64,000 nt of DNA from Patescibacteria group bacterium UBA6164. GTDB taxonomy: Bacteria > Patescibacteriota > Gracilibacteria > BD1-5 > UBA6164. Position numbers and translations under genes: made by a program. This document shows positions 9,235 through 59,093 of this stretch, in pieces (the stretch's first letter is position 1; each line of letters opens with the position of its first letter). Below the pieces are notes generated by a model. The model was not told where the DNA came from and did no database searches. It saw nothing but the letters and a program-made list of their open reading frames with translations. The stretch spans positions 2,811 to 66,810 of the forward strand of contig DIUG01000068.1 in NCBI GenBank assembly GCA_002422305.1, given 5' to 3'.

Positions 9235-9371
9235 AATTTAATAATTAAGAAATAAGAATTTATAAACATATATTATTATATAACTTTTTTATAGAAATCA
9301 ATAGATTTTCGTAGAAAGTATAATACATTTTTGTCTTTACTTTTTTTATTATTTAAGTACAATGTTTTTAC

Positions 9372-9817
9372 GGGGTTAATCTTGGTTTCTATCGGGAGAA
9401 TTGCTCGGGTTATATGCTATCTGGGAGGTGTTTATGACTTCCATAATCAATCATAAACAAGCATAAATGCAAAAAACAGAATCGCAGGTGGTTTAGCATC
9501 TTTTAAAAAAATACTAACTCCATCTTTAGTTATTGCCTAAGCATTAACTAGTAGTCTTCGCTAAGTCGATGAGCACCGTTTGGTCTACTACAAAGTCTAT
9601 AAAAATCCCCACTCTTGGAGTTTTACAGACTTATAAAAAAGAGTTTTTATTGAAACGGTTTTGATTTAATCTTGTTTCTTTAAAATATTAATAGATTAGA
9701 TTTTTATGTGTAATTTTTGTTTGTAATTTATACACATGAATATCAAAACAAACTATGATAGTAGATGTGTTTCTTTAGCCTTCCGAGACGTGAGTTCGAA
9801 TCTCACTAGCTCCACCA
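9372..9817 (+). ncRNA. ssrA: tmRNA (transfer-messenger RNA)
   Basis: 5' GGGGTTAATCTTGGTTTCTATCGGGAG and 3' GAGACGTGAGTTCGAATCTCACTAGCTCCACCA give a T-arm, an acceptor stem with a G3:U pair, and CCA. Candidate tag ORF at 9469-9540: AKNRIAGGLASFKKILTPSLVIA followed by TAA. Confidence 0.9.
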
Positions 9818-11350
9818 TATTGCAAAATTAGTATTTTTGATAAAATTGAAAGGTGTTTTTAGTTGATAACTAAGCACTTTTTTATTGCTTATTTTTAGGT
9901 TCTCAACTATGTGAAAAAAATGGTTAAACAATTGAGAACTTTTTTCTTCTAAATCTTTACTTTTTGTCTTATCTAAAAGGAAATCTAAGTATTTAATAAA
10001 ATCTATTATTTTTTTAAATACTTTTTTTGATTCTTCTTGATTTTGTAAAAATTTATTTTCATTAGTTAATTTTGTTATTTCCTCATCTATGTAAGTAGAT
10101 GACTTTTCTAAAATACTTTTTGTTATTTTACTTTCAATAAATGATTGAGTTAATTCTTCATTCTTTTTATTTAATTCTTCTATTTTTTTTATATTTTTCA
10201 TTATTATCAGTTTCTTTTCCTTATCTCAAATAGAGTATTCTTTATTTAATTTTTCAATACTTTTCTGTATAAAATCTTTACTTGGAAGAAATGATAAAAA
10301 TATTTGTTCAATTTCTTTTTCGATAAGATTCAAATTAGTATAAGGTTCATTACATTTATAAGTAAATACTGAATTTAATTGCTTAGGACATTTTAAATAT
10401 TTATTTAGTTTTTTATCATCTCTAAGCATCAATCTTCAACAACTACACTGAAAAGTTTTTGGTATTCAGGTTCTACTATAAACAAAACCTCATCTTCTGT
10501 CTTTTTGTTTTTTTATTTCCTGACATTTATTAAATAATTCTTCTGTAATTATTGGATACACAAAATTAAGATCATATTCTTCTTCATGTCTTCAAGGTTT
10601 TTCGACTCACCAGAAGATATATTCTTCTTTTGATAAATTCCAAACTTTCACTCTTTTTCATGTATATGTTTTAGTGTTTAAAATTACCTCCATTAGTCTT
10701 GTACTAATTTTTTTGTAATAATCCTCATCTCATTTTAAACCACTTTTTATTTTCTGAGTTAGACTTTTATTTCAGTACAATCATGTAGAATAAAGTTTAA
10801 AGATTTTTTGAACAATTTTTGCTTTGTCTCAGTCTTTTATGTAAGTTCAATTTATTCTTTTGTATCCAAAAGGTGTATTTCATCAAATATCTCAACCATT
10901 TTGTAGTTTTTTTCTGATTCAGAGTTTAATTCTGAAAGATAATTCTTCACTATATAATACACTTCTATTTTGTATATCTCTAATCATATATCTTCACATA
11001 TAACTATTTAACAATGGTTCAGATATAGATATTATATTAATATTTTTCTCTGTGATTAATTGGTCAATTAATACAAAATCATTTATGTTCCTACTTACTC
11101 TATCCCACTTAAATACAACAATTCATTGTAAATTTTTCTCTTTTTTTATAAATTGAATCATTTCATTAAAGATAGGTCTTGTTCATTTGTAAGCACTGTT
11201 TTCTTCTTTGTAAATTTTTACCAATTCAAAATCATGTTCAGAACAATATTTTTGAATTTGGTCTATTTGCGAGGGAATTGATATATTTCTCTCTTTTTGT
11301 TCCCATGAACTAACGCGAGCAAGAGCTACGTATTTTTTTCTTTCATTCAT
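9806..11350 (-). CDS. large serine recombinase (514 aa)
   Basis: N-terminal resolvase motif MNERKKYVALARVSSWEQ...VVFKWDRVSRN, a recombinase domain, a Cys-rich zinc-ribbon (CSCGRL...KCPKQ) and a coiled-coil tail. The last codons ata-tgg-tgg-agc-TAG are the reverse complement of the tmRNA 3' end. Joins track ORFs 10226..10432 and 9806..10201. Confidence 0.85.
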
Positions 11351-13020
11351 AGTATTTCTTTAATAAATAAGGATATTTTAATATTTTTAATAAATACTTG
11401 ATTTTTTTCATCTTTATCCAATTCAATTCCATCAACTAATACTTTTAATTTTTTATTTATATTTATATCAGTATCTTTTAGTGTTTCATTAATATTTTTA
11501 AAAATACTTAAAAATATTTGTATTTGATTATTAACATGAGAGTTTAAATTATACAACTTATCATTTATGTCTTTTAAATAATCATTATAATAAGACATTT
11601 CTTTGTTTATAGTTTTTAATTCATCATTTTTATAATTTATATTTTTTAATGCATATTCATAATTATTGACTATTCTCTCATATACCATTTTATTTGCTTT
11701 GAGTGATTTTTCATTTTTTTTGTAAAACTTTTGTATTTTTTCAAGAGTAAGTTTTTTTAAAAAATCTATTTGCGCATCATTAAAAACTATTTGTTTTAAT
11801 GTTTTATTTTTTTCTAATAATTTATCTATTTTTAGTTGAGATATAAATATTCATTTTTCATCTTTGGTACTTCTTTTTTTAGTTCTGTATTGAATACTTC
11901 ATTTTTTTAAATATGCTTCTAATTCTATTATTTCTCCATCTTCATTAATCATATAAAGTAAATTAGAATATTTTCATATTATTTTTTCTTCTTTTTTATA
12001 TGTTCTTTTTTGCTTTTTTGCTAATTTAAATTTATAATCATCTATAATTTGAAGATCAGAAAAATAAAAACTAAAAGTAATAGTTCATCATACTTCATTG
12101 AGTCAATTTATATCAAAATCATCATCTTGTTTTTCTCATATATTAGCAATATAGTTTACTATTAATTCATCATTTATATTAAGTTCATTGGTAAATTTTC
12201 AATTATACTTAAAACTATATTTATTATCATAATTATTTTCTAATACTTCTCTAATCAGTCTTAATTCATTATTTAAAGGAGTATCATAATTATCATTTTT
12301 ATTTAAATTATCACTTTTATGACTTCTTATAATCTTTTTTTCTTTTTCATTTAATTTTTGCCAAATAATATCCCATTTTTTATCCTCATTTTTAACATAT
12401 TCTTCATTTTCTTGATTACTTATCTTCAAATAAATATCAAAAATTCTATTTATAACTAAAGCATGATTTTTATCTATTTCTATTTTTTGAGTATTATAAT
12501 TTTTAGTGTATCAAAAAATAAGTTTTCATCATAATCCTCATATATTTCATCTGATTAAGTTTTGAATTCTTGAAAGACTTTGTCTGTTTGATAGTTTTTC
12601 ACTTTCAAATATAGCAAAACTTGAAAGCATTCTAAAAAGGAGTCTTCAAGTAGGAGTATTTTCCAATGTTTCAGTTGCTGATAATATTTTATATCATTCA
12701 TTTAAAAGTTTTTCTCATCTGGTGAAGTCAACAGAGTTTCTTGCAAATCTATCGAGTTTAAAAACATAAACTCATCAATATTTTCTATTTTCTTTTTTTA
12801 ATTTTGAATCTTCTATAAGAATTCTGATCATTTTATCAAATTCAATTCTATTTTCTTTTTTACCACTTGCCATTTCTTCAACTATGATGGTTTTATGTCA
12901 ATTATTATCGGCCATTCCAAGAAGAATATTTTTTTGATCTTCTAAACTCATATCATATTCTCACACTTTTGACACCCTTGTATAGATGAAATAAATTTTT
13001 TCTTCTTGTGATTTTGTCAT
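11326..13020 (-). CDS. large serine recombinase (564 aa), second copy
   Basis: MTKSQEEKIYFIYTRVSK...QD...VYVFKLDRFARN. Overlaps the downstream recombinase start by 25 nt. Joins track ORFs 12199..12429 and 11347..11688. Confidence 0.85.
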
Positions 13021-13154
13021 ATTTTTTAATTTAGATTTTAATATTTCTATAATATATATTTTTTAAAAAAATAAACTAAAAAATTAAAAAGTTATATATC
13101 TATTGTCATTTTTAGAAATATAAATTATATATTATGATAATACAATTCTAAACA

Positions 13155-14054
13155 TTAACCATGATAGTATCAAAATGCTTTTGTAATATATTCAACTCTA
13201 TTTATATTTTCAGATCCATGAAAATGAGTATGTCAGTATACAGCATATATCACTCAATATTTTTCATAAATTTTTGATAAATTATTATTGATATAAAAAG
13301 CATTTCAATAGATAGAATCAAGGTTATATAATTTTAATCATTTTGCTCAATCTTTTACTATTTCTTACCATTTTTCTGGGGAATAATCAAAGTAATATGG
13401 AGATTCTTTTTCAAGTTCATTGCTTGGTTTTATGTGTGAGATAGCAATAATCTCATAATTATTATAATACTTTTTTATGTTTCTAAGTCTCTCTACTAAT
13501 TTATCCTCTAAATATTTTGCAAAATCTATATTTCATTTTATTTTTTCATTGAATTTTATATATCTCCTATCATTAAAGATAGTACTTCAAAAAGACATCT
13601 TATCAAAATTTACATGATAATATTTTTCTAAATAAAATTTATCAACACTTCTTATTGTATAGTTATACCATCCCATATTTCATGTAATGATTTGTTTGTT
13701 TTCTTCAATAACAAAATCTTCTTTATCAATGATATGAATTTTATCTTTATATCCATGAAAATGGTTAATTAAAAACTCGTACTTCGATATTGAATCATTT
13801 ATATTAAAATCTTCATCAGATACATTAAACCGCAAATCATGATTTCCAAAAGTAACTATAATTTTCTTATAATTTGCATTATTTATTATATCATCAAAAG
13901 ATTTTTGTATTGTTGTTATTTCTTCATCAATGTCTCATGCAATGATTAAATAATTTCATGTTTGAAATAATACTCAATTGCTTCAAAAAATTGTTTTAAA
14001 GTTTTTATAGATGAAGTATGAATGAATATCTGAAGTTATATCTATATTTTTCAT
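13155..14054 (-). pseudogene. calcineurin-like metallophosphoesterase interrupted by an in-frame TAA
   Basis: Motifs DIH, GD, GNHD lie upstream of TAA 13365-13367. The final motif VYGHTHFHGS follows in the same frame, and the frame ends at TAA 13155-13157. Confidence 0.6.
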
Positions 14055-14063
14055 ATTTTGATA

Positions 14064-14097
14064 ATTAAAAAATAATGATTAGATATTAATCATTATT
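14064..14097 (-). terminator. rho-independent terminator
   Basis: Stem aataatgatt/aatcattatt followed by a U-run on the minus strand. Confidence 0.55.
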
Positions 14098-14161
14098 TTA
14101 GGAAAGCCCAGAGAATTTTTAAATCTCTATAAGTCAATTTTTGTTTTTTTTCAATCAATAC

Positions 14162-15046
14162 TTACATAATATAATTTAAAATATTTTTTAATATATTTTT
14201 CACACAATTCAATATTAAGTTTACGTTGACCAGTAACAACGATCATATTATAAAAAATGTAAATAAAATGACTATATCTCATATTTTAATTGAATATAAA
14301 ATATTTATGTTAGTAAAGAAAATATATATTATTCATAGTAAAATAACTAAAGTATAAACAAAAGCAGGAATACTTAATATTCTATGTTTTGTTTTTTTTC
14401 ATTCTTTGTATAAAATATATTTATATTTATTAATATCAATCCCCGTTAGAATTTTTGAAATAAATTTCATGACCATATGAAATATGAATAAATAAAGCAT
14501 TAATCAAAGTGAGAAATTATTATCTGATATACTATTAATATTTAAATATCATAAAATTTTAATTATAATATCTCATGGTAATTTATCAATTAATAATCAA
14601 AAAATAAATGCTATTATTATTATAAAAAATAATAATAGAGGAAAAGTAAATTGTAAATTTCATTGATTATCAACATCAAAGTCTTTATCATTAAGTCAAT
14701 AAAGCATATATCAGATAAAAATTAATTCACTTATAATTGGAAGTATATAATAGGAAAGACGTAATTGCTCTAATTGAAAATCTATTATTAAATTAGGAAA
14801 ATTTAATAATATTAAATATAACAAAATATATGATAATAAAAAAGGTAGGCTATAAAATAAAGGTTCAACTTTTCTAGATTTTATATCTTTAAGTTTTTCT
14901 ATTTCTTCTTTTAAAAGTTTTTCTTTATTATCATATTTTGTTAAAAATTTACTTGCTAAAATTTGTGATATTATTCAAAATTTATATGAGAATACTATTA
15001 TGGTATATGCAATTCAAACAAGTAACAATACTATTTTATAGTCCAT
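14162..15046 (-). CDS. multi-pass membrane protein (294 aa)
   Basis: ATG at 15046 to TAA 14162-14164. Hydrophobic throughout. Confidence 0.55.
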
Positions 15047-15075
15047 AAAATTTTATTAATAAATAAGTTTTTTAT

Positions 15076-17115
15076 TTAATTTATATTAATTCATAATTTA
15101 TCAAAAAATACTTTGTTTCTTTGTTCAGAATTTTTATAAACAAAATCAAATGATAAAACAGAATAATAGACATTTAAATTTTTATGATATCAGTAATAAC
15201 TTTCATTTTCTTCCAATTTAATAGCATCTAATAATTCTATTGATTCTCTTACTTTTTGAGTTATATCTCAAATAAAATATCAATAAATAGGTGTTTCTTT
15301 TACAACATTTATAGGTCTACCATCTACAGTTATATCATTATTTTCTCTTAATCTTTTTACATATCATAAAATTTGCTTTAAAGGATCATCTGAGTAATTT
15401 TTTCTTCAAGGTCTTTTAAATTCAACTATATAAATTGGAGAATATTTATCTTTTCAATCTCTAAATATCAAAATATCTGGTTCAGTTTTTTTTCAATCTT
15501 CTGCAATAATTGCTTTATCAGAAGTAATATAATCAGAAAATACTAAATTTTCATCAATCAACCATAAATTATGATTATCATAATCAAGATTGGTATTTTT
15601 TTTTCACATTGGAAAAATTAAATTATGTATTTTTTCTTCCTTTAGATATTTATTTTCTGAATTAAAACTAATAAATCTTTGATACAAATCTAATATTACT
15701 TTTCTTAGACTAATATAATGAACAAGTTCACTTTTATTTAAGTCTAAAAGTTCTTTTTCAATATCTATAACTTTCTGGTCTATATCTTCTCAATATTCTC
15801 AGTTTAATATTTTTCTAACTACAGATCTTGCTTTTCATTCTTTAGTAAATCTTAATTTCTCAAAGTAAATATCTACATCCTCATCACTTGGTTTATAAGG
15901 TAATTTATCAATATTTTCTTCTTTAATTCATTCACTTAATAAAGTTTTATGCCAAGGAAAATTATTATTAACAATATATTCAACACTTTCTATTTTTTTA
16001 AATTTTCTTTCTTTTAATTTTTCTGGAAAATATTTTTTAACTAGTTCAATTATTTCTTTTTCAACATCTTCCTTTCAAATTGATATAATAGATTTATCTT
16101 GATTAATTATTGGGAAAAAATTAAATCAAGTTCTTTCAGTGTTAACTGATTCATCTAAATATTTTCACTTTACATATATTTTTATAACAAAATTTTCTTT
16201 TTTAATTCAATCTGAAGATTTTTTTTCAAATTCATCATAAAACTCTTCTTTAAATTCAGGAATATATGTTTCTAGTGAAGTTGTAGGTCAAACAACTCTA
16301 TTGTGAGCAATTAAATTTATAGAACTTTTTTGATTTTCAGGATAATAAAATTTAAAAACATATACTTCAAAATTATTATCAATACAAATTAAAGTTGTTT
16401 TTTCATATCAAATTTTTTCAATTTTTGTATCAGTTCACTTAATATATTCATTCAATATAATACTATCTTCTTTTCAATTTCATATAATAGATATTTTTAT
16501 TATTGGACAATTATCATCTTCAATCAAAAATCATAGTAAATGTTCTGAAATTTTTCTAGCAAGTGTTAAAGTTTTTGTATTTAAAGTATTAATAAAATTA
16601 TCATTTGGGTATTGAAGAGTAATCTTTGTGTTATATTTACTTTTTCACAATAAATATTCATTATCATTTACTGATGAAATTCATTTACTAGCAAACTCAA
16701 ATTCTCTATTTCTAAAAGTATCTCAAACTTTATATATACTATCAATTTTTACTGATTTAAAATATTTAAGATAAGTTATTCTTCAGAATCATTTACCTCA
16801 TATTTCAATTTTTTTAGAAGAATGTAACTCATTAAAAGAAAGAAAGTTTTCATCTATAAATCAAATACCATTATCTATAATTTCAATATTATCTATTTTT
16901 GAATTTTCTTTATCATCTAATAAATTATCGATTTTATTGATTTTTACATGTATTTCTCATTTTTTAAAATTTAGATCAACCTTTTTTCTTTCACTAATAG
17001 AATCAATTCCATTTACAATTCATTCAATAATTGGAGTAAGTATATTTACTCCTTTATGAGGAAGAGTTTTTATAACTCTTTCTAGATCAACAGTCATTTT
17101 TTGAATTTCTGACAT
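15076..17115 (-). CDS. GHKL/HATPase_c_3-like ATPase with C-terminal PD-(D/E)xK nuclease-like motif (679 aa)
   Basis: N-terminal IVNGIDS...DNGIGF...GGKGFGR (Bergerat-fold motifs). C-terminal EPDILIFRD...IYIVEFKRP (D...ExK). Confidence 0.6.
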
Positions 17116-17201
17116 AATATTTCTTTAATAAATTAGAATTAAGTTTTATTTAATAAAATATATCTTTATATTAATTCATAATATAATTCATGATATTTAA
17201 A

Positions 17202-18395
17202 TTAATAACTTAAATTATATATTTTATCAACTTCTACAATTATTTCTGAAAAAGTTAATTCCTCAGAGATTGAAGATTGTAATCATGTATTTAAAACATT
17301 AACAAAATCCTCTTTTGAATAATAACTTTCAGCTTTTGCTAAAGATTTTTCTATACTTTCAGCTTTTGCGATAATTAATAATAGTTGATAATCTCTACAA
17401 ATAACTTGGGTATTATTATTAGGATGTGCTTTTGATAGATGTTGAGTAGGAGTTAAAAGTATTAAGTTTTCAGCAAAATAAGATATTTCTGGAAATTCTG
17501 ATGCCATAAATATATGATGTACCTGGGTAGCTGTTCAATTTGAAAATTCATCTTGTAATTCTGAATTTGGTTGATAAAGTCTTCTAATTAGCTTCTTAGA
17601 CTTATTCATTTTATAGTTATATAAAGCCAATCATTTAAATTCATCTTTTCATAATTTACTAATATGTTCTTCTCTAGTATCTGATTTAATTTTTCAGATA
17701 TCTCTCCAATTTGGCCTGTTATATAATAATTCATCTAATGTTATAGGAATCTTTGATATATGTCATTTAATAGTTCAATATTTTCAATATTTAAAAGCTA
17801 AAGGATTTAAAACTTTTGTAAAAATTCTTCAAGCTTCAACTTTTCAATTTATGTTTGTATTTTCAATAATAAAACTAATATATCCATTTCTTAAATATCA
17901 ATAAGATGATTTATCTTGTTTTACAAAAAAATTACTAAAGAATTCAAATATATCACTATCATTTAGAAGTTTTTCTAAATAAATTTGAATAAAATTAAGA
18001 GCATTTCTTTCTTTAATTGAAATATATTCTAGAATTTTATAATTATTTATTTGGTAGAAATTTCTATTAGATTTTTTTTCCAATTTTAAAATTCATGAAT
18101 ATGCTAGCATTCTTAATGGTTGAGAAAAAAATTTATCATATTCATTTTCAGCATTTATATTATCAACACTTGGTTTTCTAAATATATCCATAACATTTTT
18201 ATTAGTATATTCAAAATTCCATATATCATTAGCCGTAAATATTTTATTATTATCATCAGAAATAAATTCAATTACACAATCTGCAATTATACATAATACA
18301 TCTGGTGTAACTTTTTGATCCATAAAACGAGCATCATTTGTTTTTCTGATATCAAAATCATAATTATTAAAATGGTCTAATATTAAATCATTCAT
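17202..18395 (-). CDS. putative restriction endonuclease with HNH-like motif (397 aa)
   Basis: Starts 12 nt downstream of the methyltransferase. Has TQVHHIF...LLTPTQHLSKAHPNN. Joins track ORFs 18093..18395, 17898..18083 and 17283..17507. Confidence 0.55.
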
Positions 18396-18406
18396 AAAAA
18401 TAAAAA

Positions 18407-20860
18407 TTATAAAGGTAATCCAAAGAAATAAACTGAATTGGTATCAATATTTAAAGATCTAGTTCAAAAATTTCTTGCTATTTTGTAAAAATTTGTAAAT
18501 TCTTCACTTGAAAAATATTTAATCTTTTCTAAATTAATTTCTTTCTTTGGTATTAATATTGCTAATGAACCATCTGTAATTGTTCATTTAGGCATTATTC
18601 AAGCTCTAGGATAATATGATAAATTTGGAACAATAATAGTATTCTCTTTATTAAAAAATTTATTAATTTGTAAACTAGAGATATCATCAATAAATATATC
18701 TTCCTTTGTGTCAATAATTTTTCAATTTTTACTCAAATTTCTAGATTTAATTACTCTAATTTTTCCATTTATTGAACAATTCTTCTTTGTTATTTGCCTA
18801 TCTCTAAAAACATCAAAGATTCAGAAATGAAGTTTATTAGTAATCTCATCAAAAAAACTATTTCTATATAATAACCAATATGGAAAATTTGTATTTAAAA
18901 TATAATCTTTAATTTCATATTTATAAGAATTATTAATAAAAGACTCTATTAATACCAAATCACTTTCTTTTGATTTATCTTGTGAAAATTCTATATTAAT
19001 AGTCTCTATTTTTACTCATTCAAATCAACTTTCTCAAAAATCAATAATCTTATGAATTTTATTTTTTGATAAATCTACTCTTATATCATTATACTCAGGA
19101 GAAGATATAAATGATTTAGGAATTATTAGTGAAATATGTTTTCAAATTTCAAGGCTTTTTAATAAAAAATAAACAAAAATATTTGTAGTTTTAATATCAT
19201 AAGCTTTATAATTTAAATCTCATTTTTTTAATTTTTTAAATGGTGGATTTCATAAAATTAAATCATACTTTTTATCAGTATTATATTCTAAGTAGTTTAT
19301 ATTAATAAAATTAATTTTTATATTCTTAGGTAGATTTAGACATGTATCTAATAAAATTTTTAATTTATCTAAAGCATTATTATCAATATCAATAACATCA
19401 ATATTAACATTTTTAATATTTTTATATTTTTCTATAATTAAAGGAATAAAATTTCAAGATCATACTGATGGTTCAAGTATACTTAGTGAATCTTTTTTAG
19501 AAAAATCAGGCAAATCCTTTATAATACTAAATATGATATCTTTACGAGTATAGAATGCTGCAGTTTCATCTTTTGATAAATTACTTAATTCAATAATTTT
19601 AGACAAATTTGAAAATCATAAATCTTTGTGATTTTTTATATAACTTGTAAGATTTTTTTTATCAAATAAATTATTTTCTTTAATTATATTTAAAATTTCT
19701 TGTTTTGATAAATATTGAAAACTTTCTTGTATTCTTATATTTTTAGCTATTTTTTTAAAAACTAATGTAGGAACTGATTCTCATATAACATGTCTAATAT
19801 TCAACTCTTCTTTTTTTAATATTTTTTTCTTTTCTGCTAATGGTAACTTATTTAATTCTTTTAGAGGAGTATTAAACCATTCAAAAGTATTTGGAATTCA
19901 CATTAAATCCATAAGTTCTCTTATACTAAAAACTCTATCATCCTTTGGATGAATAGTATTTTGGCTTGAAAGAATATCATTTCTAGTATGTATACAAGGT
20001 CATATTTTATTCCAATACTGTCTTTTGTATTTATCTCAATTTTTGTTTTGATTTATTATAATTTTTCAATCAACAATTTTATGAGGTTTAAAATTTATAT
20101 CATCATTATCAAATGCACTTTCTCATTCTTTTAATTTTTTTATCCAATCTCTCATTTTAATAGAATATTCTCTAAAAGAGTGTAATAAATCTTTCTCATC
20201 TATTTCTCAAAAAGTACTCAAAGATTTATAATGTCATATACTTTCTTTAAGGGTAATTTCTTTTTTAATTTCATCAGGAAATAAATCATAAGGTGTAACA
20301 TTTTTTATATCTTTTCTTACTCAAATAACTAATGTTCTAGTTCTACTTGATGGAACTCAATAATCTTTAAAATTTATAATTCTACTTCATATATTATATT
20401 CTCATGCTAAATTATTACTGATAGAACTACTAATAGTTTTATCAATTCAATCTGTATCAGTACATAATGTTCATAAAAAAGCCCTAACATTTTCTAAAAC
20501 AAAATATTTAGGTTTGATTTTTGATATAATTTTTAATGATTCAACTACTAAAGAGTTTCTAGATCATTCATTTATTTTTTTATGATTTGCAACTGACATT
20601 CATTGACATGGTGGTGTTGCTACTATAACATCAATATTATGTCATTCTGCTTGTTTAAAAATCTTAGTTTGAACGTCTATATTTCTTATATCTCATAGAA
20701 TATATCCATTTTTATTTTTACACTTATTATTAAATTTTTGAATTTCTAGTCTTTTTTCTAATAATTCATTTGTAGCTATACAATCAAATCACTCATCCTT
20801 AAATCCATAACATCAAACTCATCATCAACTAAAAAGAGAAATATATTTATTTTTTTTCAT
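18407..20860 (-). CDS. fused DNA methyltransferase: N-terminal C5-cytosine MTase + C-terminal N6-adenine (Eco57I-like) MTase (817 aa)
   Basis: C5 motifs FSGGGVG, ATPPCQGMS, ENV. N6 motifs ILEPSVGSGNF and ILGNPPF. Frame verified at both motif sets. Confidence 0.8.
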
Positions 20861-20935
20861 AATGTTATTTAACATAAAGTAAAAGTTAGGAATACTATAT
20901 AAAAAAAATAAAAATTATCAAGGAATATTTATATA

Positions 20936-21760
20936 TTAAACATCTCTATGAAATAAATTATCTATTTCAATATCATTATTAATAGAAACTATATTAATAT
21001 CATTTTTATTACTTGTAAATCTTTCTTTATCATAATATCAATTGCCTTTAATATAATCATCAATAATTCATTTAATATTAATATTAGAAGAAGAAAATAT
21101 TTCATATGTATCAAAATCTTTTTTATCAATAATATTAAAAGTAAATTCACTAATATAGTCATCTATCATATTTTCTATTTCATGAATAATATCAGATTCA
21201 TCATAATAAAATTCAACTTCTCAATCTTCATAACGTTTTATTGTTACAAACTTTTCTAAATTAACTTCATGATACTCATCTTGAATTTTATCTATTAAAT
21301 AATATTCAATATTTTCTTTAAAATAATATAACAAATCTTGACTATGTATTATATAAAATAGATTTGATAATTTTTCTAAGAAATTTCATACAATATTTAT
21401 ATCATCTATATTTAATTCAAGTTGTTTTCACACAATATAAATATCTAAAAATAAAGAAGATTTTATATTTAACTTATCAACATACTTATCAATTAATTTT
21501 ATAATATCAATAAAGGTGTTTTGAAAAATATCTTCTTCTTCAGTATTTTTAATAAAATCCTGTAATTTATTGATAATACTTTCTTCATTAATAGATTCTT
21601 CTGAAAATAATTTAAATATATAATATAAATAATCTAAATTAGTATTATCATCAAAATTATCAATTATTGAACTTAATATAGCATGATAAACTCCTTTTTC
21701 TATATACAATTTTTTTTCTGATTTATCTAATCCAGACTTATAAATCGAATATAAGTTTTT
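20936..21760 (-). pseudogene. C-terminal continuation of the Mrr/NTPase gene in another frame
   Basis: The frame is open from 21760 to TAA 20936-20938 with no plausible start. The frame switch coincides with the A7 homopolymer at about 21758-21764. Contains track ORF 21428..21709. Confidence 0.55.
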
Positions 21761-23297
21761 TTATTGAAATATAAGTATCTAAATTTTTATATATACTTAT
21801 TAATTCATTTTGATTATTTATATATTCATTAATTACAAAATCTGATATTGATGGATTGAATAATGTGTAACTAACTTCTAAATTTTTAGGATTAATATTT
21901 CTATTTAAAAATGATTTTACAGCAACTTTGATTACAAAATTAAAATCTTTTGATTTATGAGTTGGTGAAATAATAGAATCTTTTATCTTATTATAAGAAT
22001 GTAATAGATCTTTTTCAATTATATATCATCCATTAAATACAACTAATTTTATTAATAGTCTAATATATTCATTAGATTGATTATAAAATGAATCTCTCCA
22101 TATATCCTTAGGATTATCTAATTTATCAATTAAAAAATTAAAATATTTATTAGCTTCTACATTAATTCTATCTTTTGTTGTGATAAATTCTATTAATCTT
22201 GGATTAAAACTTTTGTGTTTTATTATTTTTAAATAATTTTTATTTTTATAAATTTCATCAATATATTCATTATCTAAATCTGAATTGTATATATGTTTAT
22301 ATAATATTTGGGCTTTTTCATAATCACTAAAAGATTTTATTTCTAATGTAAACTCATTATTTTGGATTTTTGATTTTCAAAATATAGTACTATAATTTAA
22401 TCAATAATTAAGAATATTACTTCTTGAATTTAAGATAAATTTTTTCTTTCAAGTAGTATTTTTTTTAACTCTATTTATAAAACTTATAATATGACTATCT
22501 TGGTTATTATTTATTGCTTCAAAATAATTACTTCAAAGAAAGTCATCAAAATAAAATAATTGTTTTTCTTCTTTATTCCATACATTTTCTGCTTCAATTA
22601 TTCAGTCTTGAATTTCATAAAATTTATAATCATGTAAAGCAACTAATTTTAAGCATAAATTTTCTGATAGTGTTGTCTTTCAAATTCAAGGATCTCATGT
22701 TATTATTAATACATTTTCATCTTCAAGTTTTTTTAATGCATCATTAAAACTTGAAATTTCAATAAAAAATTTACTTTTTTCTATAATTTGTTCAAATTGA
22801 AATTCACTTCTTCAAATAATAGCATTATTTAAAATGTTTTGAAGTACATTTGTGCTTGTTATCCATAATCTGTAATATTTTCTTTCTATATCATTATTTT
22901 TAGAAAGTTCTGAATTTAAATTTTCATTTCAAAAAATATCATCAGTAGTTTCAATATATGGACTAAAAATAGATTTTATCTCTTTTTTATTTTCATCTGA
23001 TAATAGTAAATCAGTAACAAATATATATTTATCTAACTCTCAATTTAAAGATAAATTTTTAACCTTTTCAACTTCATATTTTTTCAATTTTCTAATTAGT
23101 CAATCATATCAAGTTTTTAAATATTGTTTTGTTTGAATTATTGCAGTTTTATTATTATCATAAAAAAACTTTCAATCAATTCATTTATCTTTTCATGATT
23201 TAAATCTATCAATTTTTGTATTATAAACTTTTTCTAATAAGTCATTTACAAAAATTTCAAATTCTTTATCATCCAATTGTGAAAAATCATAAGCCAT
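21738..23297 (-). CDS. Mrr-like restriction-endonuclease domain + P-loop NTPase, N-terminal 519 codons of a frameshifted gene
   Basis: DDKEFEIFVNDLL...GKDKGIDGKFF (Mrr_cat-like), Walker A ITGDPGIGKTT, Walker B LFYFDDFLG. Ends at TAA 21738-21740 just after an A7 run. Confidence 0.7.
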
Positions 23298-23317
23298 AAT
23301 TCTATCTTACTTAAAAA

Positions 23318-23914
23318 CTAAAATTTTCTCACTAATCCTTTCACAACTCAAATGATATTTATTTGATTTGCTTCAATTATTTTTGTCTTATATTTGTTAT
23401 AATTTTGAAACTCTAAAATTGCCTTTCAAGTCTTATCTTTTGAATATCTTTTTAGAGTAAATTCATTATCTCAATCAATAGTTGCTATTACTAAATCTCA
23501 AATATGAGGATATCTATTATTTAAATCAACAGAAACTATATCTCACTCAAATATTCAAACATCTATCATACTATCTCATTTTACCTCAACAAGAACAACT
23601 CAAGTAGGATTTCAACCTAAAATATATTTATTCAAGTCAATATAGTTAACAATATTAGACTCTATTTCATCAGCAACTCAACAAGTTATATTTCCATAAA
23701 GTCCTGCTCAAGATAATTTTTCAGTAGGAAAGTATTTTTTGTCTTCTTTTGTTAAATATCATTCTTCTACTAATTTTGTAAAAAATCTCGCAATACTATC
23801 TCTTGATGAAATTTTTAATAAATCTATCAAAATATCAAAAGTTGGAATAATTCATTTATCCCAATAATATGATCTCAATTTAGATAAATATAAATCAAAA
23901 TTGCTTTTTCTCAT
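23318..23914 (-). CDS. LexA-like repressor (wHTH + S24 peptidase)
   Basis: C-terminal EVKGDSMIDVGIFEGDIVSV...GDLVIATIDGDNEFTLKRY...IIGVVKGLVRKF (Ser/Lys dyad context). Lies 21 nt upstream of the Mrr/NTPase gene. Confidence 0.75.
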
Positions 23915-23927
23915 AAAAAATATATTA

Positions 23928-23973
23928 TTACTAAAAATATAACTAACATTACTATTTATACCTATTTTAGTAA
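23928..23973. promoter_or_regulatory. candidate operator in divergent promoter region
   Basis: 9-bp inverted arms ttactaaaa (23928-23936) and ttttagtaa (23965-23973), between the lexA-like start and the DUF2779 gene start. Confidence 0.25.
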
Positions 23974-24013
23974 AATAAATATTTTTTGCAAATAATTATT
24001 AATCATTCAAAAT

Positions 24014-25807
24014 ATGTTAATAACAAAATCCCTTTTTGTAGACTACAAAGAATTTCCAAAAGTAGCTTGGTGGAAACAAAATTCAATTGAAACTTACAAA
24101 AAAATTAAATGACTTGAAACGGAAGAACAAGAAATAGCTATTATGGAACTTGGTCAAAAAGTAGAAGATCTGGTTTGAGAATATTTCTTAAAAGTTGAAT
24201 GAATTGAAAAACTTGATGTTTTTTGAGATAATACTGCTTTTGATAATCAAAATGAAGATGATATTGATATGATTATTATAGAGGAGTCATACAAAGAAAA
24301 AAGAGAAAGAAATTTAAAACAAACTATTGAAGCTATAAAAAGAAAAGAACCTCTTATTTATCAACCATGATTTTTAATAGATAATCTTTTTGTGAGATGA
24401 GATTATTTAAAGTTAAATGAAAATTGAAATTATGATTTATATGAAGTAAAAGCAAAAACTTGAGTAAGAAAAGATAAAACTCATGAAAAAATAAAATACA
24501 AAAAAATATGGGAACTTGAAAATAAATTTGTATATGATATTTCTTTTCAAAAATATGTTATCAATAAAGTCCTAAATAGTGAGTGATTATGACAAATAGA
24601 GAATTTTTATTATGTTTACCTTAATTCAGAATATAAAAAAGATTGAGAAATAAATTTAAGAAAAATAATTACAGTGGATCAAGTAGATATTCAAAAAACT
24701 ATTACCTTAGAATGAGAAAAAACAACTAAAGATTTTATAAGAAATGATTCATTACTTACTCCTTTAGTTATAGAATGAACTATACAAAAAATGAGAGAAG
24801 AATTAAATTTTATTGAAGTAGAATTCAATAAAATTCATCCTTTTTCTTGAAGTAAATCTATAGAATATTTTGGAAAAGATAGAGAATTTTGAACTATTTA
24901 TTGAAAATGACTTAATCATTGTAATAAAGCCGTAAAAGAGCTACATTATTCATGAAAAAGTATACTTGATGATTTAAGTGAAAATGAACAAATATTATTC
25001 AATAAAACTGATTGAAGTATTTGAGATGCAAGACAATATATTATTAACTATTTAGAAGCAAAAAACATTTGAGAAGATTTTATAGATAAAGAAAGTATAA
25101 AACTTGAACTTGATGATTTAAAATATCCAATTTGTTTTTATGATTATGAAAGTTGTAGTGTACCAATTCCATTTTTAGATAATACTTCTCCTTATCAACA
25201 TGCTGTTGTTCAATATAGTATGCACAAAGTTTATGAGGATTGAACTATAAAACATTTTGGTTGAGTTTTAGTTGGAACTTGAGAAAAAGAAGTAAAACAA
25301 ATAGTAATAAAAAATAATAAAAATAAAGTTGATTTTGAAAGTGAGAAAGTAATAACTTGATGATACAAGGATTTATTAGATGAATTTATAGCTGATATAT
25401 GAGAGGATTTAGATAAAACTTTTATAGTTTGGTATAAACCTTTTGAAAATACAAGAAATAAAGAAATTGCTGAAACTTTTCCAGAACTAAAAGAGGCATT
25501 TGAAATGATAAATGAAAATACTTATGATCTGATGGACATATTTTCAAAATGATATTATTATTCCTTAAGATTTGAGTGATCTAATTCAATAAAATATGTA
25601 TTACCAGCTCTTGTTTCAGAAATGACATACAAAGACATGGAAGTCCCAAATTGACTTGTTGCAATGCAAACCTTAAATCAAATAATTGAGTGAAAAATTA
25701 CTTGAGATGAAAAAGAAAAACAAATAAGAAATTTGCTATTATATTGTGGGCAAGATAGTTTGGCTATGTATAGAATTTATGAGAGGATAGTCGAAAGCAT
25801 TAAATAA
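24014..25807 (+). CDS. DUF2779-family protein (RecB-like/exonuclease-like), 597 aa
   Basis: N-terminal LITKSLFVDY and the central block FYDYESCSVPIPFLDNTSPYQHAVVQYSMH resemble the DUF2779 signature. Confidence 0.55.
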
Positions 25808-36079: not shown

Positions 36080-36334
36080 ATGGATAATAATTGATTAAAT
36101 GATATTTTAACAGGATTAATCACAAATTGACTTTGGGATTTTATAAAAGTTTTTTTAAAGTTTTTATTCTGAGGTATAATTTTATGATGATTATCATTTT
36201 TGGGATATAAATCATATAATAAAAATATTAAAATTTGAGATAGGACAAAAATTAAAAATAGTTTTAAATCAAAAATAAATCAAGATATTGAGATTTGAAA
36301 ATGAGTTGAAGTTGATGATAGCTTTAAATCTTAA
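36080..36334 (+). CDS. small single-TM protein (84 aa) overlapping the start of the STAND NTPase gene
   Basis: MDNNGLNDILTGLITNGLWDFIKVFLKFLFGGIILGGLSFLGY... Ends at TAA 36332-36334, giving a 20-nt overlap with the next gene. Confidence 0.45.
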
Positions 36335-39300: not shown

Positions 39301-39983
39301 CTATAGAATATAAAAATAAGATAAATGAAATTAATTATAGTTATTATGATGAGATAGAAACTAGTATTTTAATTCAAAAAATAAATAATAATAATTTTAC
39401 AGATGATGAAATTGAAAATTTATATTTCTATGATACTAGAACTAGTTTATTAGAATTAAAAATATATTTGTATTTGGTTGATATTTGAAGAGATGACTTT
39501 ATAGAAAAGGTTAATGACTTATTAGTAGATATAGAAAAAGAAACTAATATTGATTATTATTGGAATAGTGAAGATTATGAAGTTTATAAAAAATTATATG
39601 ATTTATGAAAAATTAATAAATCTGAATCAATATTAAAAGAATTAGAAAAACCAGAGAGAGAAATAAATGAAATAATTTCTTTAAAAGATTTAAATGATGA
39701 TGAAGTAGTTAAAATTTTAAATGACAAAGTTTGTTATTGAATGTACCATACTAGTTTTTCATGAGATTATAATTATTTATTAAATGAATTATATATAAAA
39801 GATAAAAAATTATTTAATTCCTATATATCAAGAACAAATTTTAAATATGATGATAAATATGAATATGAGTTTTTTGCAAATATTCAGTGATTAACAAAAG
39901 TTTACATAGAAAATAAAGAGAGAGAGAAAGTAATTTTATTATTTGAGGAACTATTAAGTTTTTCTTGATTATTGATAAAATAA
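36315..39983 (+). CDS. NACHT-like STAND P-loop NTPase with long helical C-terminal region (1222 aa)
   Basis: Walker A IIIGNPGSGKTQLL, Walker B ILLLDGLDEI. Contains track ORF 37149..37376. Ends at TAA 39981-39983. The start could alternatively be ATG 36345. Confidence 0.7.
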
Positions 39984-40011
39984 TTACCAAAAATCTAAAC
40001 AATTAAATAAC

Positions 40012-50211: not shown

Positions 50212-50369
50212 TTTTTTATTTATTATTAAGCTAAAAGCTCAAGTTTTATGATTTGAGTTTTTTGTTTTTTCTAAAAAGTTGCATTTCGTGGTAGATTGTA
50301 AGAATTAAAAATTGACAAAAAATTATTTTTTTGTATAAAATTAATAATTTTATTATCTAATTTATTTTT

Positions 50370-57437: not shown

Positions 57438-57480
57438 TGCCTTAAAATATGGAGTTCGACCGAGTTCAAATCTTACAAGG
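57438..57480 (+). other. degenerate remnant of a tmRNA 3' end (T-arm)
   Basis: gcctt...cgaccGAGTTCaAATCTtAC compares with tmRNA gccttccgagacgtGAGTTCgAATCTcAC. The acceptor/CCA part is not conserved. Extra agttcga fragments lie at 57363 and 57452. Confidence 0.45.
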
Positions 57481-57508
57481 TGTAAAACTATTTTTTAATA
57501 AAAAATCT

Positions 57509-59083: not shown

Positions 59084-59093
59084 TAATAGAAAT

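What the first reader, a model, noticed from the sequence alone, without database searches (positions are those of the whole stretch)
15076..23914. Five-gene operon with a LexA-like repressor at its head, coupling R-M to two extra NTPase/nuclease proteins
All genes are on the minus strand with 12-80 nt gaps.
- The order is S24/LexA-type repressor, Mrr-nuclease + P-loop NTPase, C5+N6 dual methyltransferase, HNH-like endonuclease, then a GHKL ATPase carrying a C-terminal PD-(D/E)xK motif.
- An R-M pair sandwiched between an Mrr/STAND-like NTPase and a MORC/GHKL-like nuclease, under a self-cleaving repressor, looks like a composite multi-layer defence module rather than a textbook Type II system.
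Basis: partly seen in the sequence, partly recalled or inferred. Interest (0 to 1): 0.7.

Follow-up and report, generated by a model that had tools for sequence, protein, structure and literature searches.

The report
Mosaic defence island downstream of lexA
The cluster is real, but it is a patchwork of separately mobile anti-phage modules in a Gracilibacteria chromosome rather than one five-gene machine, and the one unusual point is that lexA heads a different defence cassette in each related genome.

Summary
The domain calls hold:
- a LexA/S24 repressor;
- an Mrr-nuclease + nSTAND3 NTPase, which is PADLOC candidate PDC-S73;
- a fused m5C+m6A methyltransferase with its restriction enzyme;
- a GHKL ATPase with a C-terminal PD-(D/E)xK nuclease, which is the paraMORC3 architecture ('GHKL-Shedu'). 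An enzyme of this architecture (VcSduA) was shown in 2025 to defend alone.

Corrections:
- The second gene is split by a 1-nt insertion in a poly-A run. A relative at 81% identity has it intact at 786 aa.
- The genes are not a co-inherited unit. Of 88 loci holding the GHKL gene, 0-2 hold any of the other four.
- Relatives share only single cassettes, and similarity breaks in the spacers between genes.
- The R-M pair also occurs on a small Acinetobacter plasmid without the other genes.
- The island runs on to two large serine recombinases that abut a tmRNA gene.

New observation: in six Gracilibacteria loci, lexA is followed after 17-75 nt by a different defence cargo each time (PDC-S73, a CBASS-type cyclase, a DISARM-like set, an MBL protein). 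This may be an SOS-coupled defence hotspot, but co-transcription is untested.

Verdict: an ordinary defence island made of known parts, with a moderately interesting link to lexA.

The parts
23964..23991 (-). Candidate lexA promoter, TTGCAA-N16-TAAAAT. It is followed at 23947-23964 by a block, TAGGTATAAATAGTAATG, that is conserved in close relatives.
   Evidence: The promoter scan lists it. The region is conserved in the window, L142, L093 and L140 even though the sequence further upstream differs. The block is unique in the window at 0 mismatches. No operator was proven.
23318..23914 (-). lexA: a LexA/UmuD-type S24 self-cleaving repressor, 198 aa.
   Evidence: Pfam Peptidase_S24, E 3e-20. TIGR00498 lexA aligns over residues 12-198 at 67.8 bits, below its cut-off of 110.95. 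PDB alignments to UmuD and LexA show a C-G cleavage site (ITCG), the GDSM serine and the FTLKRY lysine. Orthologues at 55-81% identity are in Gracilibacteria, and the next-best hits are annotated CPR LexA proteins.
21738..23297 (-). PDC-S73 gene, 5' ORF (519 aa): Mrr-type nuclease + nSTAND3 P-loop NTPase.
   Evidence: PADLOC PDC-S73, E 2e-199, profile positions 3-510 of 752. Pfam nSTAND3 E 1e-45 and Mrr_cat E 1e-6.
21756..21762 (-). Frameshift site: an A7 run on the coding strand, carrying one base more than the intact orthologue.
   Evidence: Deleting one A restores a 786-aa ORF. L142 reads AATAAAAAATTTA where the window reads AATAAAAAAACTTA. Two public assemblies, L009 and L010, are identical to the window here.
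20936..21760 (-). PDC-S73 gene, 3' part in the +1 frame (C-terminal region, presumed sensor).
   Evidence: The repaired protein covers the PDC-S73 profile to position 751 of 752, and the score rises from 662.9 to 690.9 bits. Homologues are single proteins of about 750-786 aa.
18407..20875 (-). Fused m5C + m6A DNA methyltransferase, 822 aa.
   Evidence: PADLOC MTase_II PDLC03277 matches full length, E 1e-235. Separate models for each half also match. Pfam DNA_methylase E 4e-43. The motifs PPCQG, ENV and GNPPF are visible in the translation.
17202..18395 (-). Restriction endonuclease, 397 aa, with an HNH-like C-terminus.
   Evidence: PADLOC REase_II PDLC03488, E 5e-122. The HH...N...H motif is visible. 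The only Pfam trace is the colicin/pyocin DNase domain at E 0.05. A 44%-identical homologue sits next to a methyltransferase on a 10-kb Acinetobacter plasmid.
15076..17115 (-). paraMORC3-type GHKL ATPase + transducer domain + C-terminal PD-(D/E)xK nuclease ('GHKL-Shedu' architecture), 679 aa.
   Evidence: Invariant in 47 sequences: N35, D81, K108, R112 (GHKL part) and E493, H497, D547, E565, K567, Q581, Y585 (nuclease part). In at least 90%: E31, G83, G85 and most of the GGKGFGR lid. The AlphaFold2 model of homologue P0015 (pLDDT 83) matches Topo VI-B, Hsp90, SMCHD1 and GyrB at E down to 1e-11. The architecture is described in PMC2292703 and PMC12137116.
14162..15046 (-). Hydrophobic, probably membrane-spanning protein, 294 aa, 29 nt after the GHKL gene. 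Function unknown.
   Evidence: No Pfam hit. The sequence is very rich in hydrophobic residues.
13365..14054 (-). Calcineurin-like metallophosphoesterase, 229 aa.
   Evidence: Pfam Metallophos, E 6e-6.
9806..13020 (-). Two tandem, overlapping large serine recombinases (564 aa at 11326-13020 and 514 aa at 9806-11350).
   Evidence: Precomputed Pfam Resolvase on both. The last codons of the distal one overlap the 3' end of ssrA.
9372..9817 (+). tmRNA gene (ssrA), which bounds the island.
   Evidence: Rfam RF00023, 73.7 bits against a gathering score of 47, full model.
24014..25807 (+). DUF2779 gene, divergent from lexA. It flanks the locus on the other side.
   Evidence: Precomputed Pfam DUF2779. 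It is syntenic with lexA in L142 and L093. In L002 it is present without lexA.

Best explanation
The region is a chromosomal defence island of about 14 kb in a code-25 (Gracilibacteria) genome. It lies between lexA and the tmRNA gene and is assembled from modules that move and act independently.

1. PDC-S73 is an Avs-like STAND protein: an N-terminal Mrr-type nuclease effector, an nSTAND3 NTPase switch and a C-terminal sensor. Here a 1-nt insertion in a poly-A run switches it off.
2. The Type II (probably IIS-like) R-M pair has a fused methyltransferase, which probably puts m5C on one strand and m6A on the other strand of an asymmetric site. Its HNH-type enzyme cuts unmodified DNA.
3. The paraMORC3 / GHKL-Shedu protein is thought to use an ATP-driven GHKL clamp to license a PD-(D/E)xK nuclease against phage DNA. 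It acts on its own, as shown for VcSduA, which has the same architecture.
4. Two further small genes and a pair of large serine recombinases lie next to ssrA. The recombinases probably account for the mobility or inversion of the block.

lexA is most likely the lineage's SOS repressor. Because only 20 nt and no terminator separate it from the next gene, at least the first cargo gene is probably transcribed from the lexA promoter. It would then be raised when LexA cleaves itself after DNA damage.

Shown here: gene content, family assignments, the frameshift, the mosaic boundaries and the lack of co-occurrence.
Inferred: co-transcription with lexA, SOS control, and the activity and specificity of each enzyme.
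For: Family assignments.

Independence of the modules:
- Among 88 loci with a GHKL homologue, LexA occurs in 2, PDC-S73 in 1, the methyltransferase weakly in 1 and the restriction enzyme in 0.
- L001 and L002 match the window at 81-83% nucleotide identity only over 15067-17157, which is the GHKL gene, and they have other neighbours.
- L142 and L143 match at 87.6% from DUF2779 through lexA and PDC-S73. The match stops at 20896, in the spacer, and a Type III-like methyltransferase follows instead.
- The R-M pair occurs on an Acinetobacter plasmid without the other genes.
- VcSduA, with the same architecture, protects as a single gene, and E27A or K557A abolishes protection (PMC12137116).

Island context: the tmRNA gene abuts the serine recombinases. 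There is a precedent for ssrA-specific islands with serine recombinases (PMC3146451). The window also carries core genes such as uvrB and a SAM synthetase.

lexA link:
- Six of six Gracilibacteria lexA loci carry different defence genes 17-75 nt downstream.
- Between lexA and 9806 the only minus-strand terminator-like site lies inside the methyltransferase ORF.
- In 15 distant lexA loci used as a control, only TatD-like hits appeared.
Against: - No transcript data exist. The promoter scan is at chance level in this 21% G+C DNA (181 sites found, 168 +/- 15 expected), so internal promoters cannot be excluded.
- No LexA operator was identified.
- No displaced ssrA fragment or att repeat marks an island end.
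- The tight same-strand packing, and the fact that 41 of 88 GHKL homologues have an upstream same-strand gene ending within 100 nt, leave room for functional coupling of the GHKL protein with whatever R-M system it follows. Iyer et al. proposed such coupling (PMC2292703).
- L002 has the DUF2779 flank and a defence island but no lexA.
- L140 has the lexA-cargo block inverted relative to ssrA. lexA may therefore belong to the mobile block.
Confidence: 0.72

Rival explanations
1. The LexA-like protein is not the cell's SOS regulator. It is a dedicated regulator that travels with the defence block, playing the role of CapW/BrxR, CapH-CapP or CapK-CapS. It keeps interchangeable and potentially toxic defence cassettes repressed until DNA damage or infection triggers its self-cleavage. 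The lexA-cargo-recombinase block is then a mobile or invertible unit docked at ssrA.
For: - lexA and about 100 nt of its promoter region are conserved, while the sequence further upstream differs: DUF2779 in the window, L142 and L093, and ssrA in L140.
- The block is inverted relative to ssrA between the window and L140.
- L002 has the DUF2779 flank plus a defence island without lexA.
- In L091 defence genes lie on both sides of lexA.
- The cleavage site is C-G, as in UmuD, rather than A-G.
- The TIGR00498 score is below its cut-off.
- DNA-damage-responsive regulators placed ahead of diverse defence operons are an established pattern (PMC9122601, PMC9122588, PMC13373217).
Against: - The nearest relatives outside the lineage are annotated chromosomal LexA proteins of other CPR bacteria.
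- Between the window and L142, lexA (81% aa), DUF2779 and PDC-S73 all lie in one 87.6% nucleotide match, as expected for vertical descent.
- The low HMM score is expected for a 21% G+C, code-25 lineage.
- Only one lexA copy is in the window, but whole genomes could not be searched for a second.
Confidence: 0.25
2. One reading: the five genes form one integrated, multi-layer defence system. The STAND NTPase and the GHKL nuclease work together with the R-M pair under one self-cleaving repressor.
For: - The genes share a strand, the spacers are short and no terminator separates them.
- paraMORC-type GHKL proteins were predicted to work within R-M systems (PMC2292703).
- GHKL homologues here often follow R-M genes directly.
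Against: - The specific families do not co-occur.
- Cassette-level mosaicism has break points in the spacers.
- The STAND gene is frameshifted in this genome, while the downstream genes keep intact ORFs and conserved catalytic residues.
- The R-M pair and the GHKL gene each occur alone elsewhere.
- A protein of the same architecture works as a single gene (PMC12137116).
Confidence: 0.06
3. The adjacency to lexA has no regulatory meaning. The space next to lexA, between DUF2779 and ssrA, is simply a permissive integration hotspot. Each cassette brings or uses its own promoter.
For: - Promoter-like sites are everywhere in this AT-rich DNA, for example TTGATA-N16-TATAGT at 20921-20894 just ahead of the methyltransferase.
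- tmRNA genes are classic island integration sites (PMC4383910, PMC3146451).
- Defence islands cluster at hotspots in general.
Against: - The first cargo gene starts 17-23 nt after the lexA stop codon in five of six loci, although it is a different gene in most of them.
- That leaves no room for a terminator plus a promoter.
- The GHKL cassette carries only 17-42 nt of upstream sequence when it moves. This suggests reliance on read-through transcription.
Confidence: 0.2

Closest known systems
paraMORC3 family (Iyer, Abhiman and Aravind 2008, PMC2292703), also called GHKL-type Shedu, type I-D; VcSduA of Vibrio cholerae (PMC12137116; classification in bioRxiv 10.1101/2023.08.10.552793)
   Same: - N-terminal GHKL ATPase with motifs I-III, an Hsp90/Topo VI-B-like middle domain and a C-terminal E-D-ExK (+QxxxY) nuclease, in about 665-680 aa.
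- Found alone or at the tail of R-M or Type IV operons. VcSduA follows a GmrSD-like pair, as the L002 homologue does.
- Positions equivalent to the residues mutated in VcSduA (E27, K557) are conserved: E31 in at least 90% of sequences and K567 in all.
   Different: - The Pfam DUF4263 and PADLOC Shedu models do not detect this protein or six homologues.
- This copy is written in code 25, with 32 TGA-Gly codons.
PADLOC candidate system PDC-S73, compared with Avs (antiviral STAND) proteins; Avs5 also uses the nSTAND3 NTPase (bioRxiv 10.1101/2025.07.08.663546)
   Same: - One polypeptide with effector, STAND NTPase and a C-terminal region.
- Full-length match to the PDC-S73 profile, E 8e-208 after frame repair.
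- The nSTAND3 domain is the one found in Avs5.
   Different: - The effector is an Mrr-type nuclease rather than Sir2.
- This copy is split by a frameshift.
Type IIS R-M systems with an HNH nuclease and paired or fused m5C + m6A methyltransferases (Alw26I/Eco31I/Esp3I, MnlI, HphI, Hin4II types; named from my own knowledge)
   Same: - A fused C5 + N6 methyltransferase next to a restriction enzyme of about 400 aa with a C-terminal HNH-like motif.
- PADLOC Type II models match both proteins over their full length.
   Different: - It is not in the Alw26I family. TIGR02987 scores only 47 bits against a cut-off of 353, and no Alw26I-type restriction-enzyme model was hit.
- The prototype and the recognition site are unknown without REBASE.
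DNA-damage-responsive regulators placed ahead of diverse defence operons: CapW/BrxR (PMC9122588, PMC9122601), CapH-CapP (bioRxiv 10.1101/2022.04.27.489752), CapK-CapS (PMC13373217)
   Same: A repressor gene sits at the head of interchangeable defence cassettes, and its inactivation is tied to DNA damage.
   Different: - Here the regulator is a LexA/S24 self-cleaving repressor, possibly the housekeeping one.
- It is on the same strand as the cargo and 17-75 nt upstream of it.
- Regulation has not been demonstrated.
ssrA-specific genomic islands with serine recombinases (Dehalococcoides, PMC3146451; Islander database, PMC4383910)
   Same: Large serine recombinase genes sit directly next to the 3' end of the single tmRNA gene, with variable cargo beyond.
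   Different: - No duplicated ssrA 3' fragment was found.
- There are two recombinases in tandem.
- The cargo is defence genes.

Membership tests
LexA (S24 self-cleaving repressor) | S24 peptidase domain with a Ser-Lys dyad | tested here: met
   Pfam PF00717, E 3e-20. GDSM and FTLKRY align with the catalytic Ser and Lys of UmuD and LexA.
LexA (S24 self-cleaving repressor) | Scissile Ala-Gly or Cys-Gly bond ahead of the peptidase domain | tested here: met
   ITCG aligns with VQCG, the Cys24-Gly25 site of UmuD.
LexA (S24 self-cleaving repressor) | N-terminal LexA-type winged-helix DNA-binding domain | tested here: inconclusive
   TIGR00498 aligns over residues 12-198 but scores 67.8 bits against a cut-off of 110.95. 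T. maritima LexA (3k2z) aligns from residue 33. Pfam LexA_DNA_bind is not hit in this protein but is present in homologues at about 35% identity.
LexA (S24 self-cleaving repressor) | Autoregulation through an operator in its own promoter, and control of an SOS regulon | tested here: inconclusive
   A conserved block follows the -10 element in 4 close loci, and L092 has a palindrome there. No common operator was found, and nothing comparable lies elsewhere in the window.
PADLOC PDC-S73 | Full-length match to the family profile | tested here: met
   E 7.7e-208 over profile positions 3-751 of 752, after removing one A.
PADLOC PDC-S73 | One uninterrupted ORF of about 750-790 aa | tested here: not met
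   Split into a 519-aa ORF and a 3' remainder in another frame (274 codons stop to stop; called as 257 aa in the public assemblies) at the A7 run. Most listed homologues, including P0246 at 81% identity, are single proteins.
Avs-like STAND NTPase | Effector domain + STAND NTPase with Walker A + C-terminal sensor | tested here: inconclusive
   Mrr_cat and nSTAND3, with GDPGIGKT, are met. The C-terminal 260 aa match no family, and no Avs model in PADLOC is hit.
Type II R-M system | DNA methyltransferase with catalytic motifs | tested here: met
   PF00145, E 4e-43. PADLOC MTase_II matches full length, E 1e-235. PPCQG, ENV and GNPPF are present.
Type II R-M system | Adjacent cognate restriction endonuclease | tested here: met
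   PADLOC REase_II PDLC03488, E 5e-122, 11 nt downstream of the methyltransferase. The same pairing occurs on plasmid NZ_CP101116.1.
Type II R-M system | HNH catalytic fold of the endonuclease | tested here: inconclusive
   An HH...N...H motif is visible in residues about 300-335. The only Pfam trace is Col-Pyo_DNase at E 0.05.
Type II R-M system | Type IIS behaviour: asymmetric site and cleavage outside it | not testable with these tools
   Inferred only from the fusion of two methyltransferase types. It needs a REBASE comparison or a methylome.
paraMORC3 | GHKL ATP-binding motifs | tested here: met
   N35, D81, K108 and R112 are invariant. E31, G83, G85 and most of the GGKGFGR lid are conserved in at least 90% of 47 sequences. 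Homologues carry PF02518.
paraMORC3 | S5/transducer-like middle domain after the GHKL domain | tested here: met
   The model of homologue P0015 aligns over 400-500 columns with Topo VI-B, Hsp90/TRAP1, SMCHD1 and GyrB ATPase modules, probability 1.0.
paraMORC3 | C-terminal restriction-endonuclease-fold domain with E-D-ExK | tested here: met
   E493, D547, E565, K567, Q581 and Y585 are invariant. The fold itself is unconfirmed. The C-terminal-only model has pLDDT 59, and its best matches (McrC, E 0.2) are not significant.
Shedu (SduA) | DUF4263 (PF14082) nuclease signature, or a match to the PADLOC Shedu model | tested here: not met
   No hit at E up to 10 in the C-termini of this protein and six homologues. 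No PADLOC hit.
Shedu (SduA) | Sequence homology to VcSduA | not testable with these tools
   The sequence is not held here, and Supplementary Table 7 is truncated. The resemblance rests on architecture and motif positions.
ssrA-integrated genomic island | Recombinase gene adjacent to the 3' end of the tmRNA gene | tested here: met
ssrA-integrated genomic island | Displaced copy of the ssrA 3' end at the far boundary | tested here: not met
   No second copy within 3 mismatches, and no local similarity.

The most novel reading that the evidence does not exclude
In this Gracilibacteria lineage, lexA is the fixed head of a swap-in slot for immune genes. Unrelated defence cassettes (PDC-S73, a CBASS-type cyclase, a DISARM-like SNF2 + methyltransferase set, an MBL-type candidate) are inserted 17-75 nt after its stop codon. 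They are transcribed from the LexA-repressed promoter. Anti-phage immunity in these tiny-genome bacteria would then be part of the SOS regulon and be switched on by RecA-stimulated LexA self-cleavage. The serine recombinases next to ssrA would exchange or invert the cargo.
Probability: 0.3. Interest if true: 0.7.

Novelty: new variant of a known kind. Interest (0 to 1): 0.42.

Why it matters
Each gene belongs to a family that is already described, so the locus adds members rather than a new mechanism. Three points have wider use.

1. It shows that defence cassettes circulate among TGA=Gly bacteria. The cassettes are written throughout in code 25, and public databases hold them mistranslated with Trp. 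This will hide catalytic glycines from any automated defence finder.
2. It is a natural example of the paraMORC3 / GHKL-nuclease gene moving as a single-gene cassette that attaches to the 3' end of many kinds of R-M operon. That bears on whether this protein acts alone or assists R-M systems.
3. If the repeated placement of variable defence cargo directly behind lexA reflects co-transcription, it would be a simple way of putting immunity under SOS control. That would parallel CapW/BrxR-type regulators, in a lineage whose phage biology is almost unknown.

Tried and rejected
I modelled the standard-code homologue P0015 instead.
- C-terminal nuclease domain modelled alone: low confidence (pLDDT 59), and no significant Foldseek match. 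Profile and sequence searches of the PDB found nothing useful. A permissive Pfam scan gave only traces of HSDR_N and Uma2.
- Direct comparison with VcSduA: five accessions of my homologues are not in the supplement as held, and Table 7 is truncated.
- att sites: no meaningful direct or inverted repeats across 9300-24100, and no second copy of the ssrA end.
- Promoter scan: at chance level in this AT-rich DNA.
- LexA operator: not definable from six promoters.
- ARAGORN found no tmRNA, but Rfam did.
- The metagenome scan with LexA returned only distant LexA genes. I used them as a control.
- Considered and rejected: that the window is a phage or plasmid (it carries uvrB, ssrA and a SAM synthetase); that TGA is Trp; that the frameshift is peculiar to one assembly (two public contigs are identical, though they may derive from the same sample).

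Full report
**1. What is in the sequence**

The window has 21% G+C. Under table 11 it contains almost no long ORFs (5 of 150 aa or more). With TGA read as a sense codon it contains 56.

TGA is glycine rather than tryptophan:
- It supplies the glycines of the Walker A motif GDPGIGKT and of m5C methyltransferase motifs I and IV.
- At the 32 TGA columns of the last gene, 44 homologues from standard-code bacteria have G in 30% of cells against a background of 4.8%. They never have W.
- Five of these columns are invariant G.
- Public databases hold the same proteins with W at every such position (P0001, P0247).

The nearest named relatives are 'Candidatus Gracilibacteria'. Two public contigs, ENA k141_1915249 (67.8 kb) and JGI 3300001605 Draft_10005547, are 100% identical to the window over 22 and 14 kb.

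**2. The genes**

All are on the minus strand.

| Gene | Coordinates | Size | Assignment |
|---|---|---|---|
| lexA | 23318-23914 | 198 aa | Pfam S24, E 3e-20. Alignment with UmuD and LexA structures shows a Cys-Gly cleavage site, the GDSM serine and the KR lysine. |
| PDC-S73 | 20936-23297 | 786 aa if repaired | Mrr_cat + nSTAND3. PADLOC candidate PDC-S73. |
| Methyltransferase | 18407-20875 | 822 aa | Fused m5C + m6A enzyme. PADLOC MTase_II full length, E 1e-235. |
| Restriction enzyme | 17202-18395 | 397 aa | PADLOC REase_II, E 5e-122. HNH-like motif; Pfam gives only a colicin-DNase trace at E 0.05. |
| GHKL + nuclease | 15076-17115 | 679 aa | No hit in Pfam, NCBIfam or PADLOC. Identified through homologues (section 3). 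|

The spacers are 20, 60, 11 and 86 nt.

The PDC-S73 gene is not one ORF:
- It reads 21738-23297, then shifts frame at an A7 run (21756-21762).
- Removing one A gives 786 aa, which cover the PADLOC profile 3-751 of 752 (E 8e-208).
- Among more than 2,000 homologues the norm is one protein of about 750-786 aa.
- The 81%-identical orthologue in L142 is intact and reads A6T where the window reads A7C.
- This copy is therefore a frameshift mutant. It could be a pseudogene or a phase-off state; which one was not tested.

**3. The last gene**

It has at least 258 homologues in the protein search, and 540 encoding stretches were confirmed in the scan of GTDB species-representative genomes. These span many phyla, and most of those listed are 640-680 aa long.

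- A 47-sequence alignment keeps N35, D81 and the lid residues K108 and R112 invariant. E31, G83, G85 and most of the GGKGFGR lid are conserved in at least 90% of sequences. These are the GHKL motifs.
- In the C-terminus E493, H497, D547, E565, K567, Q581 and Y585 are invariant. This is the E-D-ExK plus QxxxY pattern of RecB-like PD-(D/E)xK nucleases.
- An AlphaFold2 model of homologue P0015 (pLDDT 83) matches the ATPase + transducer modules of Topo VI-B, Hsp90/TRAP1, SMCHD1 and GyrB, with E down to 1e-11.
- The C-terminal fold could not be confirmed independently.

This is the architecture that Iyer et al. named paraMORC3 and linked to R-M systems (PMC2292703). Gu et al. list GHKL-ATPase-fold Shedu homologues among those with enzymatic N-terminal domains. 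Adams et al. showed that VcSduA of this architecture is a single-gene anti-phage system that needs both the GHKL glutamate and the nuclease lysine (PMC12137116).

The DUF4263 and PADLOC Shedu models do not detect the present family, and I could not obtain the VcSduA sequence. I therefore file the gene under paraMORC3 and say only that it most likely works like VcSduA.

**4. Do the five genes belong together?**

No, for four reasons.

- Co-occurrence: in 88 loci with a GHKL homologue and 10 kb on each side, a LexA homologue occurs in 2, PDC-S73 in 1, a weak m5C match in 1 and the restriction enzyme in 0.
- GHKL cassette: the two closest relatives (73-77% aa) match the window at 81-83% nucleotide identity only across 15067-17157, the GHKL gene itself.
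  - In L001 it follows an Eco57I-like enzyme and an AAA_15 ATPase.
  - In L002 it follows a methyltransferase, an unknown gene and a GmrSD_N protein.
  - In L003 it sits in a prophage-like context.
- lexA and PDC-S73: L142 and L143 match at 87.6% from DUF2779 through lexA and the intact PDC-S73. The match stops at 20896, inside the spacer, and a Type III-like methyltransferase follows.
- R-M pair: the restriction enzyme has a 44%-identical homologue next to a methyltransferase on a 10-kb Acinetobacter plasmid that has none of the other genes.

The cluster is therefore a mosaic of at least four evolutionary units.

**5. What survives of the 'coupling' idea**

The GHKL gene is often a tail gene. 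In 41 of 88 loci, a same-strand ORF of 180 aa or more ends within 100 nt of its start.

Of the 53 upstream neighbours scanned:
- 16 are the T5orf172 nuclease of a conserved MmeI-like enzyme / DEAD helicase / T5orf172 / GHKL operon;
- others are Eco57I, N6_Mtase, MmeI, ResIII, HsdS, Type ISP, C5 methyltransferase or Mrr genes.

When the cassette moves it takes only 17-42 nt of upstream DNA with it. Two readings fit. It may be an autonomous gene that relies on read-through transcription, or it may be a generic helper of R-M systems. The single-gene activity of VcSduA favours the first.

**6. Beyond the stated coordinates**

- The same-strand string continues with a 294-aa hydrophobic, probably membrane protein and a metallophosphoesterase. 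Two overlapping large serine recombinases follow at 9806-13020.
- The last codons of the distal recombinase overlap the 3' end of a tmRNA gene at 9372-9817. Rfam scores it at 73.7 bits; ARAGORN missed it.
- tmRNA genes are classic island targets, and ssrA-specific islands with serine recombinases are known (PMC4383910, PMC3146451).
- No displaced ssrA fragment or att repeat was found, so the island ends are not defined.
- On the other side lies DUF2779. Elsewhere the window carries uvrB, a SAM synthetase, NeuB, an amidase, a Type I R-M system and a P-loop + SF1-helicase pair. The locus is chromosomal.

**7. lexA**

Its orthologues at 55-81% identity are all from the same lineage, and the next-best hits are annotated CPR LexA proteins. 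In every related locus I could fetch, lexA is followed on the same strand by defence genes, and the cargo differs between loci. Only L142 shares its first gene with the window, and L093 and L140 share a DrmD-like core.

| Locus | Spacer after lexA | What follows |
|---|---|---|
| Window | 20 nt | PDC-S73 (frameshifted), then the R-M pair and the GHKL gene |
| L142 | 23 nt | PDC-S73 (intact); in L143, which overlaps it, a Type III-like methyltransferase follows |
| L093 | 19 nt | 314-aa unknown gene, then DUF2188, a DrmD-like SNF2 helicase (E 9e-191), a Type III-like methyltransferase and a KAP NTPase |
| L140 | 75 nt | DUF2188, then DrmD-like helicase, methyltransferase and Res-like helicase |
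| L092 | 17 nt | CBASS-type oligonucleotide cyclase (E 9e-43), then a Type III methyltransferase and a helicase |
| L091 | 17 nt | MBL-type protein (PDC-M48B, E 8e-12), then an HpaII R-M pair; more defence genes lie upstream |

- A rough control used 35 downstream ORFs in 15 distant lexA loci. It gave only TatD-like hits.
- A promoter, TTGCAA-N16-TAAAAT, and the following block are conserved with lexA even where the upstream flank differs.
- No terminator-like hairpin follows lexA.

I infer, but have not shown, that the first cargo gene is co-transcribed with lexA and is therefore damage-inducible. The general idea has precedents in CapW/BrxR, CapH-CapP and CapK-CapS.

Open points:
- No operator could be defined.
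- L002 has the DUF2779 flank and an island but no lexA.
- In L140 the lexA-cargo block is inverted relative to ssrA. lexA may therefore belong to a mobile or invertible block rather than to the core genome.

**8. Verdict**

- The interpretation as a single composite system is not supported. The locus is a defence island made of known, separately mobile modules.
- The parts are 'new members of known kinds'.
- The recurrent lexA-headed, ssrA-bounded slot for variable defence cargo in a code-25 lineage is a new variant of a known theme. It is the only element that merits follow-up.

Noticed in passing
window 9372-9817 (+): A tmRNA (ssrA) gene: Rfam RF00023, 73.7 bits, full model. ARAGORN did not report it. 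The stop codon and last three codons of the serine recombinase ORF on the opposite strand overlap its 3' end (CTAGCTCCACCA).
   Followed up: partly
L140 1106-1572 and 2012-2608, compared with window 9372-9817 and 23318-23914: In L140 the tmRNA gene lies 440 nt upstream of lexA in the same orientation. In the window, lexA points towards ssrA from 13.5 kb away. The whole lexA-cargo block is therefore inverted between two related genomes.
   Followed up: partly
window 57446-60880 (+), and probably beyond: A Type I R-M system: HsdM (N6_Mtase E 2e-115, HsdM_N) and HsdS (Methylase_S E 3e-38). It is a second, separate R-M locus in the same window.
   Followed up: no
window 36279-42300 (+): A 1222-aa protein with a P-loop (GNPGSGKT) and no Pfam family, followed with a 5-nt overlap by a 762-aa SF1 helicase (AAA_11/AAA_12). 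This may be another defence pair.
   Followed up: no
window 11348-11393, 15044-15089, 17113-17158: A shared sequence of about 25 nt (coding-strand consensus ...TTATTTATTAAAGAAATAYTATG) lies directly ahead of three start codons: the second recombinase, the 294-aa membrane protein and the GHKL gene. It is probably a translation-initiation region.
   Followed up: no
P0001, P0247 and other database entries for this contig: Public protein collections hold these genes translated with TGA as Trp. Conserved glycines then read as W, for example IWGKWFWR for IGGKGFGR. This lowers profile scores and could hide such genes from defence-finding pipelines.
   Followed up: yes
L040 2587-11449, and about 16 similar loci, mostly labelled Alphaproteobacteria: A conserved four-gene operon: an MmeI-like Type IIG/L enzyme, a DEAD/ResIII helicase, a T5orf172/MUG113 protein and a paraMORC3 GHKL-nuclease. 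The last two genes are only a few nucleotides apart or overlap. I did not check whether this set is already a named defence system.
   Followed up: partly
window 50361-51608 (+): The S-adenosylmethionine synthetase is of the PF01941 type (archaeal-type, from my own knowledge), E 4e-79, rather than the usual bacterial MetK.
   Followed up: no
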